DNA of 4,668 nt from a virus (Duplodnaviria; Heunggongvirae; Uroviricota; Caudoviricetes), in the IMG/VR virus record IMGVR_UViG_3300012155_000088, positions 1 to 4,668 of that record; one strand, written 5' to 3'. Positions within the stretch are counted from its first letter, which is position 1, and each line of letters opens with the position of its first letter. The notes under the pieces are model-generated. The model was not told where the DNA came from. It saw nothing but the letters and a program-made list of their open reading frames with translations, and ran no database searches. Made by a program: the position numbers and the translations under genes. This document shows, in pieces, positions 1 to 4,668 of the stretch.

Positions 1-100
1 ACCCATCTTTACGCATTTGATCTGGAACAGGTTTAACAGCGGATTATCAGGTCATTAAGCAAATATAACGCCCTGAGAATTTCGACAGGCAAAAGAAAAA

Positions 101-123
101 GGGGTTAGCATTTAGCTAACCCC
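101..123 (-). terminator. Rho-independent terminator hairpin (9-bp stem GGGGTTAGC/GCTAACCCC, 5-nt loop) immediately 3' of the tRNA fragment; possibly bidirectional
   Basis: Seen in sequence: perfect 9-bp inverted repeat at 101-109 and 115-123. On the minus strand it is followed by TTTTTCTTTT (complement of 91-100); on the plus strand by TTATCTTATTT (124-134). It lies about 10 nt downstream of the tRNA CCA end. Terminator function is inferred from this structure. Confidence 0.55.
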
Positions 124-133
124 TTATCTTATT

Positions 134-193
134 TGGCGGAAGCGCAGAGATTCGAACTCTGGAACCCTTTCGAGTCGCCGGTTTTCAAGACCG
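134..193 (-). tRNA. serT: Partial tRNA-Ser(UGA): 3' 60 nt only (anticodon stem-loop, long variable arm, T arm, acceptor 3' strand, CCA); 5' half absent; likely att core copy at the element boundary
   Basis: Reverse complement of 134-193 reads CGGTCTTGAAAACCGGCGACTCGAAAGGGTTCCAGAGTTCGAATCTCTGCGCTTCCGCCA. It contains an anticodon loop CTTGAAA (anticodon UGA), a long class-II variable arm, a T-loop GTTCGAATC and a terminal CCA. From memory it matches the 3' part of E. coli serT with about one mismatch. Sequence beyond 193 (AAGAAAAATAAAG...) cannot form the D arm or acceptor 5' strand, so the gene is truncated. Confidence 0.8.
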
Positions 194-334: not shown

Positions 335-1354
335 CTACTTACTGACCACAAGCGGCAAATCCAGTGTTGGGGTGATTTTGGTTTTACGATCGTAAATCAA
401 CACCTGATTTTCTGTTTTGTGTCCACTGAAAATTTGTTTGTCGCGACTGCTGCCTTCGTAATCTGAAATCCCTTTGGCTTTTATGTCATGGAAGTTGCAC
501 CCAAACGGAACGCCGGCTTTTTGCTCGGCTGCACGTTTAGCCTGATTCCACCAGTTGTTCAGCGTCTTGGCTATTACCTTCCCGCCTTTGGTTGTGTTGA
601 TCACATACTCGCATGTGCCGGAAGATACATTTCGGGCTAACTGGATCGCCGTACGTAATCGCGGAGACCATTCCTTGATTTGTTTAGTGCCGGTCTTGTT
701 TTGCTCAATGTAAATCCCTTTATCCATAATATCCTGCCATTTCAGCTCGAGTACATCACCGAGCCTTGCCGCACAAAGATAGGATATCTCCATTGCAATA
801 CGTAACTGTGGAATTGCTTCCGCATATATTGCAGCATACTGTTCATCGGTGATGTAAACAGTACGGGCTTTAAGTGTGAATTTTCTGACTCCTTTGCATG
901 GATTATTTTTCACATACCCACGCTCATATCCCCATCCGTATACACGGCTCAGACTTGCCAGTTCATGGTTTGCCTGGGTCTTGCTCTCAAGTCCTCGCTT
1001 ATCCATGAAAATTCTTACCTGTTCAATTTTTACATTATCAGCAAGCACTTTTCCGAATACTGCCAACAATACCCTTTGATGTTGCCGATAATCTTTTTGG
1101 GTTCGGGGGGCCAGTTCTGTAAATGCAGGGGAGTCCATAAACATGTGCCATAATTTAGCGACGGTCATTATGTTGTGGAGTTTTGCTTTTTCCAGCTCAT
1201 AATTTTGCCAGACTTTAGCTACGCTGGTTTCCCGCACTCTTCCGAGCCCTATAGTTCTTGTGCTTCCTTCGGGTTTCCATACGTAACTGTAACCATTCGA
1301 TCTAACACGCGGTGGTAGTGCATTATCTTTTTTGTTTTTTCTTGGTCTTCCCAT
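335..1354 (-). CDS. int: Tyrosine-type site-specific integrase, phage lambda Int family (339 aa)
   Basis: The N-terminus MGRPRKNKKDNALPPRVRSNGYSYVWKPEGSTRTIGLGRV parallels the lambda Int arm-binding domain (MGRRRSHERRDLPPNLYIRNNGYYCYRDPRTGKEFGLGRD, from memory). The catalytic-domain blocks AARLGDV (Arg I), YIEQNKTG (Lys), FHDIK (His), FSGHK (His II) and LIYDRK (Tyr nucleophile) are in lambda-like order. RBS GAGG sits 9 nt upstream of the ATG at 1354. The gene lies next to the tRNA-derived att site. Confidence 0.95.
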   Translation of the reverse strand: MGRPRKNKKDNALPPRVRSNGYSYVWKPEGSTRTIGLGRVRETSVAKVWQNYELEKAKLHNIMTVAKLWHMFMDSPAFTELAPRTQKDYRQHQRVLLAVFGKVLADNVKIEQVRIFMDKRGLESKTQANHELASLSRVYGWGYERGYVKNNPCKGVRKFTLKARTVYITDEQYAAIYAEAIPQLRIAMEISYLCAARLGDVLELKWQDIMDKGIYIEQNKTGTKQIKEWSPRLRTAIQLARNVSSGTCEYVINTTKGGKVIAKTLNNWWNQAKRAAEQKAGVPFGCNFHDIKAKGISDYEGSSRDKQIFSGHKTENQVLIYDRKTKITPTLDLPLVVSK

Positions 1355-1574
1355 TGTTCAGCGCCTCAAAATCGGGTTCAGCGGAAACCAGTTCAGGTGC
1401 TTTTGGCATCGTAGTCAGTCCGTGTGGAATATCCCTGCGAAGAACTATTGGTTCGTTTTTAGGACCGATTACAAATGGGATACCGTGCAGCCTTAACTGG
1501 TGTTGCTGTTTTGTGTATCGCTCGTATTTCGTGATCTCTTGAATCTCTGCTGGCGATAGAGTTAATTCGTACAT
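1323..1574 (-). CDS. xis: Excisionase (lambda Xis-like, 83 aa); its 3' end overlaps the int start by 32 nt
   Basis: Small basic protein immediately upstream of int and overlapping it, as in lambda xis-int. The N-terminus MYELTL resembles lambda Xis MYLTLQEW and the basic tail NNGKTKKKQKR resembles lambda RIRNGKKAKS (from memory). Only a weak AAGG lies about 12 nt upstream of the ATG. Confidence 0.8.
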   Translation of the reverse strand: MYELTLSPAEIQEITKYERYTKQQHQLRLHGIPFVIGPKNEPIVLRRDIPHGLTTMPKAPELVSAEPDFEALNNGKTKKKQKR

Positions 1575-1640: not shown

Positions 1641-4112
1641 TTAAAAATCAACCGGATTCGGGATCAGTTTTTGCCAGATAGCTGAAACGTATTTTGCCTG
1701 GTAACGAGCGTCATCAAGTGCATTGTGGCACTCACCTTCGAATGGAATATCCGTTATGGCATCGAAGTCTATGGCTTTCCCCAGCTCAACGATTGTGCGT
1801 ACATCGCGATCGTTGCAGTAGCGCCACGGGCAGGGGATACCCTGTCGTTCGTATGAACGGCGTAAAATCACGTTGTCGAAGTTGGCTCCATTCCCCCAGA
1901 CCTGGACAAAAAATTCACCGGAGTTTTCGTCGATAAATTCCCGCAATTGCAGTAGTGCATCATCTAACGGAATTTCATCGGTCAGAAGGGCAGATTGCGC
2001 CTCGCGTGATTGCTTGAGCCACCATTTTATGGTGTCACGATCAATGACTCCGCCAGTAGTTTCCAGATCGATGGTCTTGCTAAATTCCGGCCCCATATCT
2101 CCGGTTTGCGGATCGAAAAATATTGCACCTATTGAGATAATCGGGGCATCTGGATTTTTTCCCATGGTTTCAAGGTCGATCATTAGATGGTCACACGTCC
2201 CGCTGGTGGATGTGCTTTCATGATGACCGTTCACCTTAACTGAGTGATCTGTCGCCTCACCAGTTTCATTATCGCTGGCGTGGTCCTGAGCGCTGCCAGC
2301 ATTCTCCTTGTGTTGATGTTCAGCGCCTTCCATTTCCTCTGGATCATTTTCCTGAACTTCAACCTGATTCTCTTCATCGAATGTTTCCTGGTATGTTGCG
2401 TCGCCCATAACCGCGCCACAATCAGGGCAGTTGCCGCCACCGCTCTGACCGCAGGCGGTGCAGACTTTTTCCGGTTCCTGTTGCGCTACTGGCTCAGGTT
2501 GTTTCGTTTCTGGCTCGTTTTGTAACGCATTTTGGCTGTTTTGTTCCGCTTTCTGGTCGTTCTGTTCCGATTCTTGCTGGTTCTGGTTTACAGAATCGCG
2601 GGTTTCAATCCCCTTCACCCATTTCGGATCATTCGGGTCGCTAATCCCTGCAACAAATTCTCCGCGAGAGGCAGCAAGCAACTTATCGGCGTCAGGCTGG
2701 CTGATATTGGCTGCCTGCATAATTTTGTTTACTTCGTCAGCGGTAACTTTTACCGGCTCTGGTTGTGCGGTCGTGTCAGATGCACCAGTATTTTGTTGTG
2801 AACCTGAGTATGTACCGTTTTTGCGGGCGAAATATTCTTCTTTCGTGATTTCAGTAGCCCCGGCAGCCAGCGCCTTATCCAGACCAGAAAGTTTGTTTGC
2901 ACGACCATATTTTTCGCCATCCTTATCTGTGAAGAGGAAGTAGAACGGCCCCTCACGCTCTACAGATGGTTCGACTTCCACTTTGCATTCGGTTTTTTCG
3001 TTGTCCGGAATTGCCGTTTCCACTGCATCAGTTTCTGGTACTGGCGACGAGAGAGTATCAGTTGCGCTCTGATTTGTTCCTTCATCTTCAAACACGCCCT
3101 TTGTAGTCAGGTATTCAGTAATGTATTTGTTCAGTGCCACAGGGTCTTTGTGAATGTCGATCGGACGTTCACGGACAAGGCCAAAAATAGTCTGGCGGTC
3201 GTAGCGAAGGGCATCAGGCTGTTTGCGCATTGATGCCGAGATACGCTTCCAGTCTTCGCGGTCGTTGTCGATAACTTCATTTTTTGCCCAGCGATGGATG
3301 CTGCCGTCAATGTTTCCGGCATCAATGTCACCAGGCCACAGAGCGTAGGCCAGTTCATCATCCAGTGTTTTCCATGTCTGCTTGTATTCGCGACGAATGG
3401 TGGCAGTGGCTGGGGGGATTTTCGCTACTGAGTTTTCAGTGTTCTGCCGGTTGACTCTGGCGCGGGCAAGATCAACAACAGACGTGTATTTCCCGGTTTC
3501 TTTGCGTTCGGCTTCGCGACGTTTTTTCCAGGTGCGTAATTCTGTCTGGATCTCAGGCCATTTTGCACCCGGCTTACATTTATGTTTAACCCACCTGATG
3601 GCGAGCAGCTTAAGCTCTGAATACATGACGTTAACTTCAGGCATTTTCATCAATGCCTCAACGATATGCCCGTTGAATGTTGTCATGTCCTCCTGCAGTA
3701 ATTCCTGAGCACTAATCACCATATCAACGGTGATGTTTTCACATGTACCGAACTTAACCAGGACCGCGTTCTGTACTTCAAGGGACAGCTTGTCAAAATT
3801 GACGTTCATCGGATCGGATTCTGGTTCGACCGGAACAAAGGAAGCGCCTTCCTCATCCCAGCGGTTTTCCAGCATATATTCGGTATCCCAGGAGTCGATG
3901 GCAGGGCGGGGCATGCCGGGTTTATCCTCGCAAACAAGAAATTTATAAGCGCAGTCCTGAGCAGTCGGATATTGCTCCAGGAATTGCCAGGTAAATTTGG
4001 CACGGGCGCGGTGTTCGTCGCCGGCTTCAATGGCAGTGGCTACAGCGACTGCACCTTCTTCCTTTATTGCCTGTTCGTCCGGAATGGCGGCGCAAATAAA
4101 GACTTTACTCAT
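1641..4112 (-). CDS. Large modular prophage exonuclease (823 aa): unassigned N-terminal region, acidic Q/E/N-rich linker with Cys4 zinc ribbon (possibly RecE-like), C-terminal DnaQ-like DEDDh 3'-5' exonuclease domain
   Basis: Single uninterrupted 823-codon ORF with RBS GAGGT 8 nt upstream of the ATG at 4112. Exo I motif MIDLETMG (D646, E648), Exo II WGNGANFDNVIL (D746) and Exo III ECHNALDDARY (H796, D801) are seen directly, with spacing typical of DEDDh exonucleases. Zinc-ribbon motif CTACGQSGGGNCPDC at residues 551-565 (nt 2418-2462). The central segment DADKLLAASRGEFVAGISDPNDPKWVKGIETRD and the Cys4 block appear, from memory, to resemble the middle of E. coli Rac RecE. Confidence 0.85.
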   Translation of the reverse strand: MSKVFICAAIPDEQAIKEEGAVAVATAIEAGDEHRARAKFTWQFLEQYPTAQDCAYKFLVCEDKPGMPRPAIDSWDTEYMLENRWDEEGASFVPVEPESDPMNVNFDKLSLEVQNAVLVKFGTCENITVDMVISAQELLQEDMTTFNGHIVEALMKMPEVNVMYSELKLLAIRWVKHKCKPGAKWPEIQTELRTWKKRREAERKETGKYTSVVDLARARVNRQNTENSVAKIPPATATIRREYKQTWKTLDDELAYALWPGDIDAGNIDGSIHRWAKNEVIDNDREDWKRISASMRKQPDALRYDRQTIFGLVRERPIDIHKDPVALNKYITEYLTTKGVFEDEGTNQSATDTLSSPVPETDAVETAIPDNEKTECKVEVEPSVEREGPFYFLFTDKDGEKYGRANKLSGLDKALAAGATEITKEEYFARKNGTYSGSQQNTGASDTTAQPEPVKVTADEVNKIMQAANISQPDADKLLAASRGEFVAGISDPNDPKWVKGIETRDSVNQNQQESEQNDQKAEQNSQNALQNEPETKQPEPVAQQEPEKVCTACGQSGGGNCPDCGAVMGDATYQETFDEENQVEVQENDPEEMEGAEHQHKENAGSAQDHASDNETGEATDHSVKVNGHHESTSTSGTCDHLMIDLETMGKNPDAPIISIGAIFFDPQTGDMGPEFSKTIDLETTGGVIDRDTIKWWLKQSREAQSALLTDEIPLDDALLQLREFIDENSGEFFVQVWGNGANFDNVILRRSYERQGIPCPWRYCNDRDVRTIVELGKAIDFDAITDIPFEGECHNALDDARYQAKYVSAIWQKLIPNPVDF

Positions 4113-4192
4113 TTTGTTTTAACCTCATTACAGATTTAAGGGTGAACAAATCCCTGCCATTGCTGGCATCTAAAAATAAAACCGGATATTAA

Positions 4193-4396
4193 TTACGGTG
4201 CTGCTTTAAGTCCTGCCGGGATTTCGTTATTGTCCATGCGAATAACTTTATCAACCGGATAACAGTTGCCGGGAATTTTCTGTTCCGCTGCGGCAGCCAT
4301 GCATTCTTTCATTGAACCGTAAATGTCAATAACCAGGTCAACAGGCTCGCCCGTATTAAGAAAAACTGTCAGAGTGAGAGCAATTGCTGTATTCAT
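4193..4396 (-). CDS. Hypothetical small protein (67 aa from the ATG at 4396) with an N-terminal hydrophobic segment; translationally coupled to the upstream ORF
   Basis: The ATG at 4396-4394 overlaps the upstream ORF's TGA stop in an ATGA arrangement. AGGA lies 8 nt upstream of this ATG. The N-terminus MNTAIALTLTVFL is hydrophobic. A longer in-frame form starts at 4450 (85 aa; KR followed by a hydrophobic core, signal-peptide-like) but has a poor RBS and a 58-nt overlap with the upstream ORF. No recognisable family. Confidence 0.5.
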   Translation of the reverse strand: MNTAIALTLTVFLNTGEPVDLVIDIYGSMKECMAAAAEQKIPGNCYPVDKVIRMDNNEIPAGLKAAP

Positions 4397-4581
4397 TGCC
4401 AGCATCCTTTTTGCATCGGGCGTAAACGTGCCAGCATTGAAAGAATGCATATTTTATTTAATAGCTCCCGTTCGTGTTTTCTCTTATTAATGGCATCTTC
4501 AGTAAATGCAGGGTTACTGATTCTGACACCAATTTCAAAACAACCTTCAGACGTATTAACGTTTGGTAATAACGTTTCCAT
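4393..4581 (-). CDS. Hypothetical small protein (62 aa from the ATG at 4581); reading frame stays open to the window edge, so it may be 5'-truncated here
   Basis: Strong RBS GAGGA 7 nt upstream of the ATG at 4581. The stop overlaps the start of the downstream ORF. The same frame has no stop codon between 4582 and 4668, so the true start could lie beyond the window. No recognisable family. Confidence 0.5.
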   Translation of the reverse strand: METLLPNVNTSEGCFEIGVRISNPAFTEDAINKRKHERELLNKICILSMLARLRPMQKGCWQ

Positions 4582-4668
4582 TATCGCGTCCTCAACAATG
4601 AATTTTGTGATGCGGTGCCTGGTGCCTCCAGGTGACGTTAACCAGTTAACAATTAACGCCGGATACAG

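What the first reader, a model, noticed from the sequence alone, without database searches (positions are those of the whole stretch)
4193..4581. Two small translationally coupled ORFs upstream of the exonuclease gene, one with a hydrophobic N-terminus
The 62-aa ORF (4393-4581, strong GAGGA RBS) ends in TGA overlapping the ATG of a 67-aa ORF (ATGA coupling, AGGA 8 nt upstream). The downstream product begins with a hydrophobic stretch (NTAIALTLTVFL); the longer 85-aa alternative has a signal-peptide-like KR plus hydrophobic core. Small coupled genes at this position in lambdoid early-left operons are typically kil-type host-killing proteins, superinfection-exclusion proteins, or anti-defence or toxin-antitoxin-like pairs, and are frequently unannotated. 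The upstream ORF's frame is open to the window edge, so its true length is unknown.
Basis: partly seen in the sequence, partly recalled or inferred. Interest (0 to 1): 0.4.

Follow-up and report, generated by a model that had tools for sequence, protein, structure and literature searches.

The report
Known prophage dicB–ydfD gene pair
The two small overlapping genes are ordinary copies of dicB (a cell-division inhibitor) and ydfD (a lysis protein), a well-studied, routinely annotated pair found in Qin-like prophages of most E. coli genomes.

Summary
On the minus strand a 62-aa ORF (4393-4581, GAGGA 7 nt upstream) ends in a TGA that overlaps the ATG of a 67-aa ORF (4193-4396, AGGA 8 nt upstream) with a hydrophobic N-terminus. 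Neither is unknown.

- **62-aa product:** full-length DicB (Pfam PF05358 1-62/62, NCBIfam NF049927 above cutoff), 87% identical to E. coli K-12 DicB.
- **67-aa product:** a DUF1482/YdfD protein, 68% identical to the K-12 Qin lysis protein YdfD. K-12 dicB and ydfD overlap by the same 4 nt.
- **Linkage and selection:** the pair is linked in all 90 loci examined. Both genes are under purifying selection (dN/dS 0.30 and 0.17).
- **Distribution:** the stretch matches 4556 of 5426 complete E. coli genomes, where RefSeq annotates both genes.
- **Start of dicB:** the frame open to the window edge is the non-coding dicB leader, so ATG 4581 is the start.
- **85-aa alternative:** not supported. It has no RBS, its ATG lies inside dicB codons, and distant family members all start at the MN position.

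The prophage sits at serT: int, xis, exonuclease, ydfD, dicB. By homology, DicB recruits MinC to the septum and blocks division and ManYZ-dependent phage entry. YdfD is reported to lyse dividing cells by inhibiting IspG. This is already known and of low interest.

The parts
4393..4581 (-). dicB, 62-aa cell-division inhibitor DicB (ATG 4581-4579, TGA 4395-4393)
   Evidence: Pfam PF05358 1-62/62, E 6.2e-37. NCBIfam NF049927 130.6 bits against a cutoff of 100. 87% identity to K-12 DicB b1575. dN/dS 0.30.
4589..4593 (-). Shine-Dalgarno GAGGA of dicB, 7 nt before the ATG
   Evidence: Read. GAGGA in 20 of 25 distinct contexts; the others read GAGGG (1) or GAGGAT (3), or vary upstream of it.
4582..4668 (-). 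Non-coding 5' leader of dicB; the frame is open but not translated
   Evidence: One mismatch to the K-12 dicF-dicB spacer. No in-frame start codon inside the window, and in-frame stops in some relatives. Weak resemblance to Rfam STnc100.
4193..4396 (-). ydfD-like gene, 67-aa DUF1482 lysis-protein homologue (ATG 4396-4394 overlaps the dicB TGA)
   Evidence: Pfam PF07358 72.1 bits against a cutoff of 25. PHROG 1092 aligns 1-63/63 starting at this Met. 68% identity to K-12 YdfD b1576. dN/dS 0.17.
4405..4408 (-). Shine-Dalgarno AGGA (AAAGGA) of ydfD, inside the 3' end of dicB, 8 nt before the ATG
   Evidence: Read. AAAGGA in 23 of 25 distinct contexts; the other two read ACAGGA and CGGAGA.
4397..4450 (-). 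In-frame upstream extension that would give the 85-aa ORF; judged not translated
   Evidence: No purine-rich RBS before ATG 4450. That ATG is formed by the dicB codons ATA-TGC. It is absent in 3 of 90 loci. Divergent family members all start at the MN position. Curated NCBI entries are 63 or 67 aa.
4113..4192 (-). 80-nt spacer between ydfD and the exonuclease gene, with a weak GCCA-GCAA-TGGC hairpin
   Evidence: One terminator-like match, no more than expected from shuffles. Folding z-score +0.6.
1641..4112 (-). 823-aa prophage exonuclease; K-12 ydfE is the remnant of this gene
   Evidence: PHROG 2082 1-823/823. Pfam Rv2179c-like 3'-5' exonuclease domain at residues 642-813. K-12 layout.
1323..1574 (-). 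Excisionase (DUF4224)
   Evidence: Pfam PF13986; PHROG 1266 excisionase.
335..1354 (-). Tyrosine integrase
   Evidence: Pfam PF00589; PHROG integrase families; RefSeq annotation in relatives.
135..193 (-). 3' 59 nt of tRNA-Ser(UGA) serT, the attachment-site copy; the prophage junction is at 193/194
   Evidence: Alignment to K-12 yccA-serT: window 1-193 is identical apart from one mismatch, then homology ends. ARAGORN finds no complete tRNA.

Best explanation
The two ORFs are the dicB-ydfD gene pair of a Qin-like lambdoid prophage integrated at serT in an Escherichia chromosome. They form the distal part of the early-left (dicB) operon, which is transcribed towards the exonuclease, xis and int genes.

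**Shown here**
- Identity: full-length family matches, 87% and 68% identity to the K-12 proteins, and the same 4-nt ATGA overlap.
- The gene order was the same in all 90 loci examined.
- Both genes are under purifying selection.
- The start codons are ATG 4581 for dicB and ATG 4396 for ydfD.

**Inferred from the K-12 orthologues**
- Repression: the operon is silent while a DicA-type repressor is active.
[quoted passage not shown] Through ZipA it takes MinC to mid-cell, where the FtsZ ring is dismantled and cells filament. The same MinC-dependent activity blocks ManYZ, and so blocks DNA entry of lambda-like phages.
- Coupling: ribosomes terminating at the dicB TGA reinitiate at the overlapping ATG and make the 67-aa YdfD-like protein.
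- YdfD: K-12 YdfD lyses dividing cells and is reported to bind and inhibit IspG of the MEP isoprenoid pathway.
- Interaction between the two: because this lysis needs ongoing division, co-produced DicB dampens it.
For: **Family membership**
- DicB: PF05358 1-62/62, 125.6 bits; NF049927 130.6 bits against a cutoff of 100.
- YdfD: PF07358 72.1 bits against a cutoff of 25; PHROG 1092 1-63/63 from Met19 of the 85-aa ORF.
- BLASTP to K-12 b1575 and b1576: 87% and 68% identity.

**Layout and context**
- K-12 has the same layout, with ydfD annotated 'lysis protein'.
- The leader differs at 1 nt from the K-12 dicF-dicB spacer.
- All 90 loci have both genes at a fixed 185-nt start-to-start spacing.
- dN/dS is 0.30 for dicB and 0.17 for ydfD, with variable sites enriched at third positions.
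- A match is present in 4556 of 5426 complete E. coli genomes, annotated as dicB and DUF1482.
- The whole-window architecture occurs in 704 genomes.
- Upstream in relatives lie a DicA-like HTH repressor, DUF1391/ydfA and ydfB.

**Functional determinants**
- The N-terminal 19 residues of DicB equal K-12 apart from K2E. That position tolerated K2A, K2G and K2R.
- Three of the eight changes (positions 55, 57, 61) fall in the last 8 residues, which were dispensable in K-12 DicB (PMC4967827).

**Mechanism literature**
- PMC6832061, PMC8835842, PMC10448788.
Against: No function was tested for this allele.
- The YdfD-like protein is only 68% identical to the K-12 protein. Its hydrophobic N-terminus is weaker (19-residue KD mean 1.41 against 2.00), and it carries four extra C-terminal residues.
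- The IspG mechanism rests on one group's work (PMC8835842). That paper says YdfD's effect on IspG enzyme kinetics was difficult to assay.
- The upstream part of the operon (promoter, repressor, any dicF) lies outside the window.
- The closest relatives have no DicF, so regulation may differ from K-12.
- The AlphaFold model of the YdfD-like protein was uninformative (pLDDT 57).
Confidence: 0.92

Rival explanations
1. The downstream gene is really the 85-aa ORF (ATG 4450). It would encode a protein with a KR-plus-hydrophobic signal peptide that is exported or membrane-anchored, translated from a start inside dicB.
For: The ORF exists. The in-frame ATG 18 codons upstream is present in 87 of 90 loci. 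Automatic gene callers often report 85- or 81-aa forms. The 15-residue hydrophobicity rises from 1.24 to 1.89 when LAM is included.
Against: There is no Shine-Dalgarno before ATG 4450 (the sequence is TTAAATAAAAT). That ATG is a by-product of the conserved dicB codons Ile-Cys. It is lost in the three most divergent contexts, one of which has a stop 9 codons upstream. The Pfam and PHROG profiles begin at the MN Met. DUF1482 members at 37-51% identity are 62-67 aa and start at that same position. Curated NCBI and K-12 annotations use 63 or 67 aa.
Confidence: 0.03
2. The 62-aa ORF is only the tail of a longer gene that starts beyond the window edge.
For: The frame has no stop between 4582 and 4668. 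In many relatives it stays open for 40 codons, with a GTG at codon -32.
Against: The match to the 62-position DicB models is end to end. The ATG is invariant and the GAGGA before it nearly so, varying in 4 of 25 contexts. There is no start codon in the leader inside the window. Several relatives with intact DicB have in-frame stops at codons -14, -15, -21 and -30. The leader equals the K-12 non-coding spacer. N-terminal fusions mask DicB activity (PMC4967827).
Confidence: 0.02
3. The pair is a bona fide toxin-antitoxin module. DicB would be a dedicated antidote that neutralises YdfD by direct binding.
For: The genes are small, overlapping and co-transcribed. DicB co-expression prevents YdfD lysis (PMC8835842 citing Masuda 2016).
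Against: SulA, an unrelated division inhibitor, rescues equally well, which points to an indirect effect through division arrest. DicB is itself toxic. No TA or defence family hits were found. Deleting ydfD had minimal effect on the DicB phage-resistance phenotype.
Confidence: 0.04
4. The genes are decaying remnants of a cryptic prophage with no maintained function.
For: Qin in K-12 is defective. One Shigella flexneri copy of ydfD is frameshifted (L006). 27 of 90 DicB copies end two codons early.
Against: Both ORFs are intact here. dN/dS is 0.30 and 0.17 across 38 and 44 distinct alleles. The pair also occurs in sequenced phage genome records such as mEp460, Tritos and HannyBb. Here int, xis and the 823-aa exonuclease are all intact. 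The 2-residue truncation lies in the dispensable C-tail.
Confidence: 0.04

Closest known systems
DicB of the E. coli K-12 Qin cryptic prophage (b1575; Pfam PF05358, NCBIfam NF049927)
   Same: 62 aa and 87% identical. The first 19 residues are identical apart from K2E. The RBS is the same, and the 87-nt leader matches except at 1 nt. It holds the same position directly upstream of ydfD with a 4-nt overlap.
   Different: There are eight substitutions, three of them in the dispensable C-terminal tail (P55, Q57, W61). The host prophage sits at serT rather than at the Qin site. It keeps an intact exonuclease, xis and int. Judging from close relatives, it probably lacks dicF upstream.
YdfD, lysis protein of Qin (b1576; Pfam PF07358 DUF1482; YebW is a paralogue name)
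   Same: 68% identity over 63 aa. It shares the hydrophobic N-terminus, both conserved cysteines, and the motif EQKIPGNCYPVDKVI. The start is translationally coupled to dicB in the same way.
   Different: It is 67 aa rather than 63. K-12 has a 1-nt insertion near the 3' end that brings in an earlier stop, and 67 aa is the commoner form. Residues 4-29 diverge most, and the hydrophobic segment is less hydrophobic. Lysis and IspG binding are untested for this allele.
Lambda Kil and Rac KilR (prophage early-left division inhibitors)
   Same: They work alike: small proteins from the early-left operon of a lambdoid phage that block FtsZ-ring formation when the prophage is derepressed. Phage Evi has a gene annotated 'Kil protein' at the equivalent position next to the exonuclease (H46).
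   Different: There is no sequence relationship; only DicB models match. From established knowledge of these families, DicB acts through MinC and ZipA, whereas Kil acts on FtsZ with ZipA without needing MinC.
Single-gene phage lysis proteins that inhibit envelope-precursor synthesis (phiX174 E on MraY, Qbeta A2 on MurA, M Lys on MurJ)
   Same: As reported for K-12 YdfD, this would be a small protein that lyses only growing and dividing cells by starving cell-wall synthesis of a precursor (PMC8835842).
   Different: The family and the target (IspG) differ. The gene lies in the early-left operon rather than a late lysis cassette. The mechanism is less firmly established.

Membership tests
DicB (PF05358 / NF049927) | Full-length match to the curated family models above their cutoffs | tested here: met
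   PF05358 125.6 bits (cutoff 27), 1-62/62. NF049927 130.6 bits (cutoff 100), 1-62/62.
DicB (PF05358 / NF049927) | About 62 aa, with the N-terminal ~14 residues that are required for activity in K-12 DicB | tested here: met
   The first 14 residues, METLLPNVNTSEGC, are identical to K-12 apart from K2E, and L5 is kept. K2 tolerated substitution, and the last 8 residues were dispensable (PMC4967827).
DicB (PF05358 / NF049927) | Location in the early-left operon of a lambdoid prophage, downstream of a DicA-type repressor and ydfA/ydfB, and directly upstream of ydfD | tested here: met
   The downstream context is in the window. The upstream context lies outside the window but is seen in relatives that are 96-98% identical and in K-12.
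DicB (PF05358 / NF049927) | Binds MinC and inhibits division in a MinC- and ZipA-dependent way | not testable with these tools
   Needs expression in wild-type and minC (E156A or deletion) hosts.
YdfD / DUF1482 (PF07358) | Match to the family model above the gathering score | tested here: met
   PF07358 72.1 bits (cutoff 25). PHROG 1092 1-63/63, E 1.7e-34. 68% identity to K-12 YdfD.
YdfD / DUF1482 (PF07358) | 62-67 aa, a hydrophobic N-terminal segment, two conserved cysteines and the QK-PGNCYPV-K-I core | tested here: met
   C32, C45, Q39, K40, P42, Y46, P47, V48, K50 and I52 are invariant in 35 sequences. Distant members keep the same length and start.
YdfD / DUF1482 (PF07358) | Start codon coupled to the stop of dicB | tested here: met
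   ATGA at 4396-4393. Of 90 loci, 61 have ATGA and 2 have GTGA at the dicB stop. The other 27 have a dicB TGA 2 nt before the ydfD ATG.
YdfD / DUF1482 (PF07358) | Division-dependent cell lysis on expression; binds IspG | not testable with these tools
   Known only for the K-12 protein (PMC8835842).
Type II toxin-antitoxin pair | A recognisable toxin or antitoxin domain, with a non-toxic antitoxin that neutralises the toxin directly | tested here: not met
   No TA family appears in the Pfam, NCBIfam or PADLOC scans. Both products are toxic, and SulA substitutes for DicB in rescue. Direct binding was not testable.
Sec signal peptide (85-aa isoform) | A translated, conserved n-region and h-region ahead of the mature domain | tested here: not met
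   No RBS. The start is not conserved in divergent loci. Family profiles and distant members begin 18 codons later.
DicF sRNA (RF00039) as part of the dicBF operon | A DicF gene upstream of dicB | tested here: inconclusive
   In K-12 dicF ends 174 nt before dicB, about 87 nt beyond this window's edge. DicF is found in K-12 (76.7 bits). It is not found in the close relatives L001 and L090.

The most novel reading that the evidence does not exclude
The most novel reading not excluded has two parts. First, this YdfD allele differs from the studied K-12 protein in its target or localisation. It is 68% identical to K-12, has a weaker hydrophobic N-terminus and carries a 4-residue C-terminal extension. 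Second, the unusually strong nucleotide conservation of the dicB leader and of dicB itself reflects an overlapping STnc100/PasD-like regulatory RNA that takes the place of DicF in this prophage type. Third-position diversity is 0.078 in dicB against 0.221 in ydfD.
Probability: 0.07. Interest if true: 0.35.

Novelty: already known. Interest (0 to 1): 0.06.

Why it matters
It matters little beyond correct annotation. The window carries an intact serT-integrated Qin-like prophage arm with the well-known dicB-ydfD module. The useful outcomes are negative. The 'unknown coupled ORFs' are named genes with published phenotypes. The open upstream frame is a leader, not coding sequence. The 85-aa gene call that automatic pipelines often make for DUF1482 proteins is probably an over-extension. 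Allelic differences from K-12 could interest groups working on DicB-MinC or YdfD-IspG.

Tried and rejected
- **Structure of the YdfD-like protein.** AlphaFold2 on a 35-sequence alignment gave pLDDT 57 and pTM 0.33. That is too poor for a fold search, so none was run.
- **Solved structures.** No relatives exist in the PDB for either protein.
- **Defence systems.** PADLOC models gave no hits.
- **RNA structure.** Folding of the dicB leader and of the ydfD-exonuclease spacer was no better than shuffled sequence (z -0.89 and +0.60).
- **Promoters and terminators.** No promoter-like site was found in 4000-4668. The single terminator-like match is at chance level.
- **Antisense ORF 4323-4490 (+).** Rejected: its ATG is replaced by a non-start codon in 55 of 90 loci and the frame is broken in 4.
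- **Species-representative genome scan.** It returned only 7 loci, all but one labelled Escherichia or Shigella, so broad taxonomic comparison was not possible.
- **Exhaustive representative search.** It showed a narrow family of 35 clusters. Two long repetitive proteins, P0124 and P0127, are spurious multi-stretch hits.
- **Masuda et al. 2016 (PMC5975272).** This is the primary ydfD paper. It is not held in the library, so its results are cited only as relayed by PMC8835842.

Full report
**Observation**

On the minus strand the window holds a 62-aa ORF at 4393-4581 and an 85-aa ORF at 4193-4450. The shorter 67-aa form of the second ORF starts at ATG 4396-4394.

Reading the minus strand gives these coordinates:
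- GAGGA at 4593-4589, 7 nt before the first ATG (4581-4579).
- AGGA (AAAGGA) at 4408-4405, 8 nt before the second ATG.
- An ATGA at 4396-4393, where the stop of the first ORF and the start of the second share bases.

The frame of the first ORF has no stop up to the window edge.

**Identity**

The 62-aa product matches the DicB models from end to end. Pfam PF05358 scores 125.6 bits at positions 1-62/62. NCBIfam NF049927 scores 130.6 bits against a cutoff of 100.

The second product matches Pfam PF07358 (DUF1482) at 72.1 bits. It also matches PHROG 1092 over 1-63/63, beginning at residue 19 of the 85-aa ORF, which is the Met of the 67-aa form.

In E. coli K-12 the Qin prophage carries dicB (b1575) followed by ydfD (b1576, annotated 'lysis protein') with the same 4-nt overlap. 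The ydfE remnant of the exonuclease gene and intQ follow. The window proteins are 87% and 68% identical to K-12 DicB and YdfD. The 87 nt upstream of dicB in the window differ at one position from the K-12 dicF-dicB spacer.

**How common it is**

The 569-nt stretch matches 4556 of 5426 complete E. coli genomes, with a median of two copies per genome. The listed hits annotate it as 'dicB: cell division inhibition protein DicB' and 'DUF1482 family protein'.

It also occurs in sequenced phage genome records such as mEp460, Tritos, HannyBb and the PPompW phages. The whole 4.7-kb architecture recurs in 704 genomes.

**Comparative tests**

I collected 90 sequences:
- 7 from species-representative genomes, found with DicB.
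- 80 viral contigs, found with the YdfD-like protein.
- K-12, strain ETEC1732, and the window itself.

All 90 carry both genes with a fixed 185-nt start-to-start spacing. In 27 loci DicB ends two codons early through a TGG-to-TGA change. That leaves a 2-nt gap before the ydfD ATG.

Nei-Gojobori dN/dS over the distinct alleles is 0.30 for dicB (38 alleles) and 0.17 for ydfD (44 alleles). Variable sites are enriched at third positions.

**Start codons**

*dicB.* There is no in-frame ATG, GTG or TTG in the leader inside the window. Several relatives with intact DicB carry in-frame stops 14, 15, 21 or 30 codons upstream. The ATG is invariant, and the GAGGA varies in only 4 of 25 distinct contexts. 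N-terminal fusions mask DicB activity in K-12 (PMC4967827). ATG 4581 is therefore the start, and the open frame is the untranslated leader.

*ydfD.* The alternative ATG at 4450 has no Shine-Dalgarno. It is formed by the dicB codons ATA-TGC, and it is missing in the three most divergent contexts. DUF1482 members at only 37-51% identity are 62-67 aa long and begin at the equivalent MN/MT position. Curated NCBI entries are 63 or 67 aa, whereas unnamed metagenome gene calls are often 85 or 81 aa. The 67-aa form is the supported product.

**The hydrophobic N-terminus**

The segment is real but short. TAIALTLTVFL has an 11-residue Kyte-Doolittle mean of 2.22. The best 19-residue window reaches only 1.41, against 2.00 in K-12 YdfD. 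An AlphaFold2 model built from 35 homologues was of low confidence (pLDDT 57), so no structural inference is drawn.

**Other strand and signals**

- The 55-aa plus-strand ORF at 4323-4490 lacks a start codon in 55 of 90 loci and is interrupted in 4, so it is not a gene.
- No promoter-like sites occur in 4000-4668, and the single terminator-like match is at chance level.
- The leader and the downstream spacer fold no better than shuffled sequence.

**Context**

Window 1-193 equals the K-12 yccA-serT spacer plus the 3' 59 nt of serT, with one mismatch. Homology stops at 193/194. The element is therefore a prophage integrated at serT.

On the minus strand the order is integrase (335-1354), excisionase (1323-1574), an 823-aa exonuclease (1641-4112), ydfD and dicB. 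In relatives that match the whole window at about 96%, the operon continues upstream with ydfB, a DUF1391/ydfA gene and a DicA-like HTH repressor.

**Mechanism (inferred by homology, not tested here)**

- *DicB.* It binds MinC and, through ZipA, brings it to mid-cell, where the FtsZ ring is dismantled. The same MinC-dependent activity inhibits ManYZ and lowers infection by lambda-like phages about 100-fold in the abstract's figure (plating efficiency 0.04 in the assay shown) (PMC6832061).
[quoted passage not shown] A ydfABC-dicFB-ydfD transcript has been detected (PMC10448788).
- *YdfD.* Its expression lyses cells unless division is blocked by DicB or SulA. It is reported to bind IspG, and ispG overexpression or HMBPP rescues the cells (PMC8835842).
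- *This DicB allele.* It keeps the N-terminal residues shown to be essential. Three of its eight changes lie in the dispensable last 8 residues.

**Comparison with known systems**

This is a member of both families, and every sequence-level defining feature was met. Functionally it resembles lambda Kil and the single-gene lysis proteins, but it is unrelated to them in sequence.

It is not a toxin-antitoxin pair. No TA or defence models match, both proteins are toxic, and SulA can replace DicB in the rescue.

**Verdict**

It was wrong to suppose the genes unannotated or of unknown length, and wrong about the 85-aa signal-peptide form. This is already known and ordinary, and of low interest.

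Noticed in passing
window 1-193 (serT fragment at 135-193, minus strand): Window 1-193 is host chromosome: the yccA-serT spacer plus the 3' 59 nt of tRNA-Ser(UGA) serT. It is identical to K-12 apart from one mismatch at 173. Homology ends at 193/194, which marks the prophage junction next to int. ARAGORN finds no complete tRNA.
   Followed up: yes
window 4562-4668 (-); L090 8549-8772 (-): The dicB leader gives a sub-threshold match to Rfam STnc100 (RF02076), a prophage sRNA family related to PasD. The score is 20.1 bits when cut by the window edge and 34.1 bits (E 1e-4, gathering score 47) in the full-length relative. The match includes the hairpin CCUGG-AGGCA-CCAGG. Close relatives L001 and L090 show no DicF, unlike K-12.
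   Followed up: partly
window 4393-4668 compared with 4193-4396, across 57 distinct homologous regions: The leader and dicB are much more conserved at the nucleotide level than ydfD. Mean pairwise diversity is 0.053 (leader), 0.064 (dicB) and 0.121 (ydfD). Third-codon-position diversity is 0.078 against 0.221. This holds even though most loci were recruited by YdfD similarity. It could reflect an RNA-level constraint or a recombination block.
   Followed up: partly
loci L051-L067, L075-L088 and others (27 of 90): A common DicB variant ends at residue 60 through a TGG-to-TGA change, which leaves 2 nt between the dicB stop and the ydfD ATG. This is consistent with the reported dispensability of the last 8 residues of DicB.
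   Followed up: partly
window 4193-4210 compared with L002 5975-5990: K-12 YdfD is 63 aa because a 1-nt insertion (GGTCTTTAA against GGACTTAAA) brings in an earlier stop. The 67-aa form ending in LK(T/A)AP, as in this window, is the commoner one.
   Followed up: yes
L006 (Shigella flexneri SFBU0723) 3186-3386: The ydfD copy is frameshifted after 18 codons while dicB remains intact. This looks like a pseudogenised lysis gene in Shigella.
   Followed up: no
L007 (contig labelled as a Veillonella parvula MAG): A 22.9-kb contig binned as Veillonella carries an Escherichia-type dicB-ydfD pair, with DicB 82% identical to the window's. This is probably a mis-binned enterobacterial prophage contig.
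   Followed up: no
window 1641-4112 (-): The 823-aa exonuclease has a C-terminal Rv2179c-like 3'-5' exonuclease domain (residues 642-813). It also has a weak CxxC...CxxC zinc-ribbon-like hit at 548-569 and a long acidic, Q-rich linker. It only partly matches the NCBIfam exodeoxyribonuclease VIII model (276 bits against a cutoff of 1269). K-12 ydfE is its truncated remnant.
   Followed up: no
window 4323-4490 (+): A 55-aa antisense ORF spans the dicB/ydfD junction. Its ATG is replaced by ATA, ACA or another non-start codon in 55 of 90 homologous loci, so it is not a conserved gene.
   Followed up: yes
window 89-127 (-): A stem-loop followed by a U-run (AAGGGGUUAGC...GCUAACCCCUU UUUCUUUU) gave a chance-level hit to ctRNA_p42d. 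It lies just downstream of the serT 3' end and is most simply the serT terminator.
   Followed up: no
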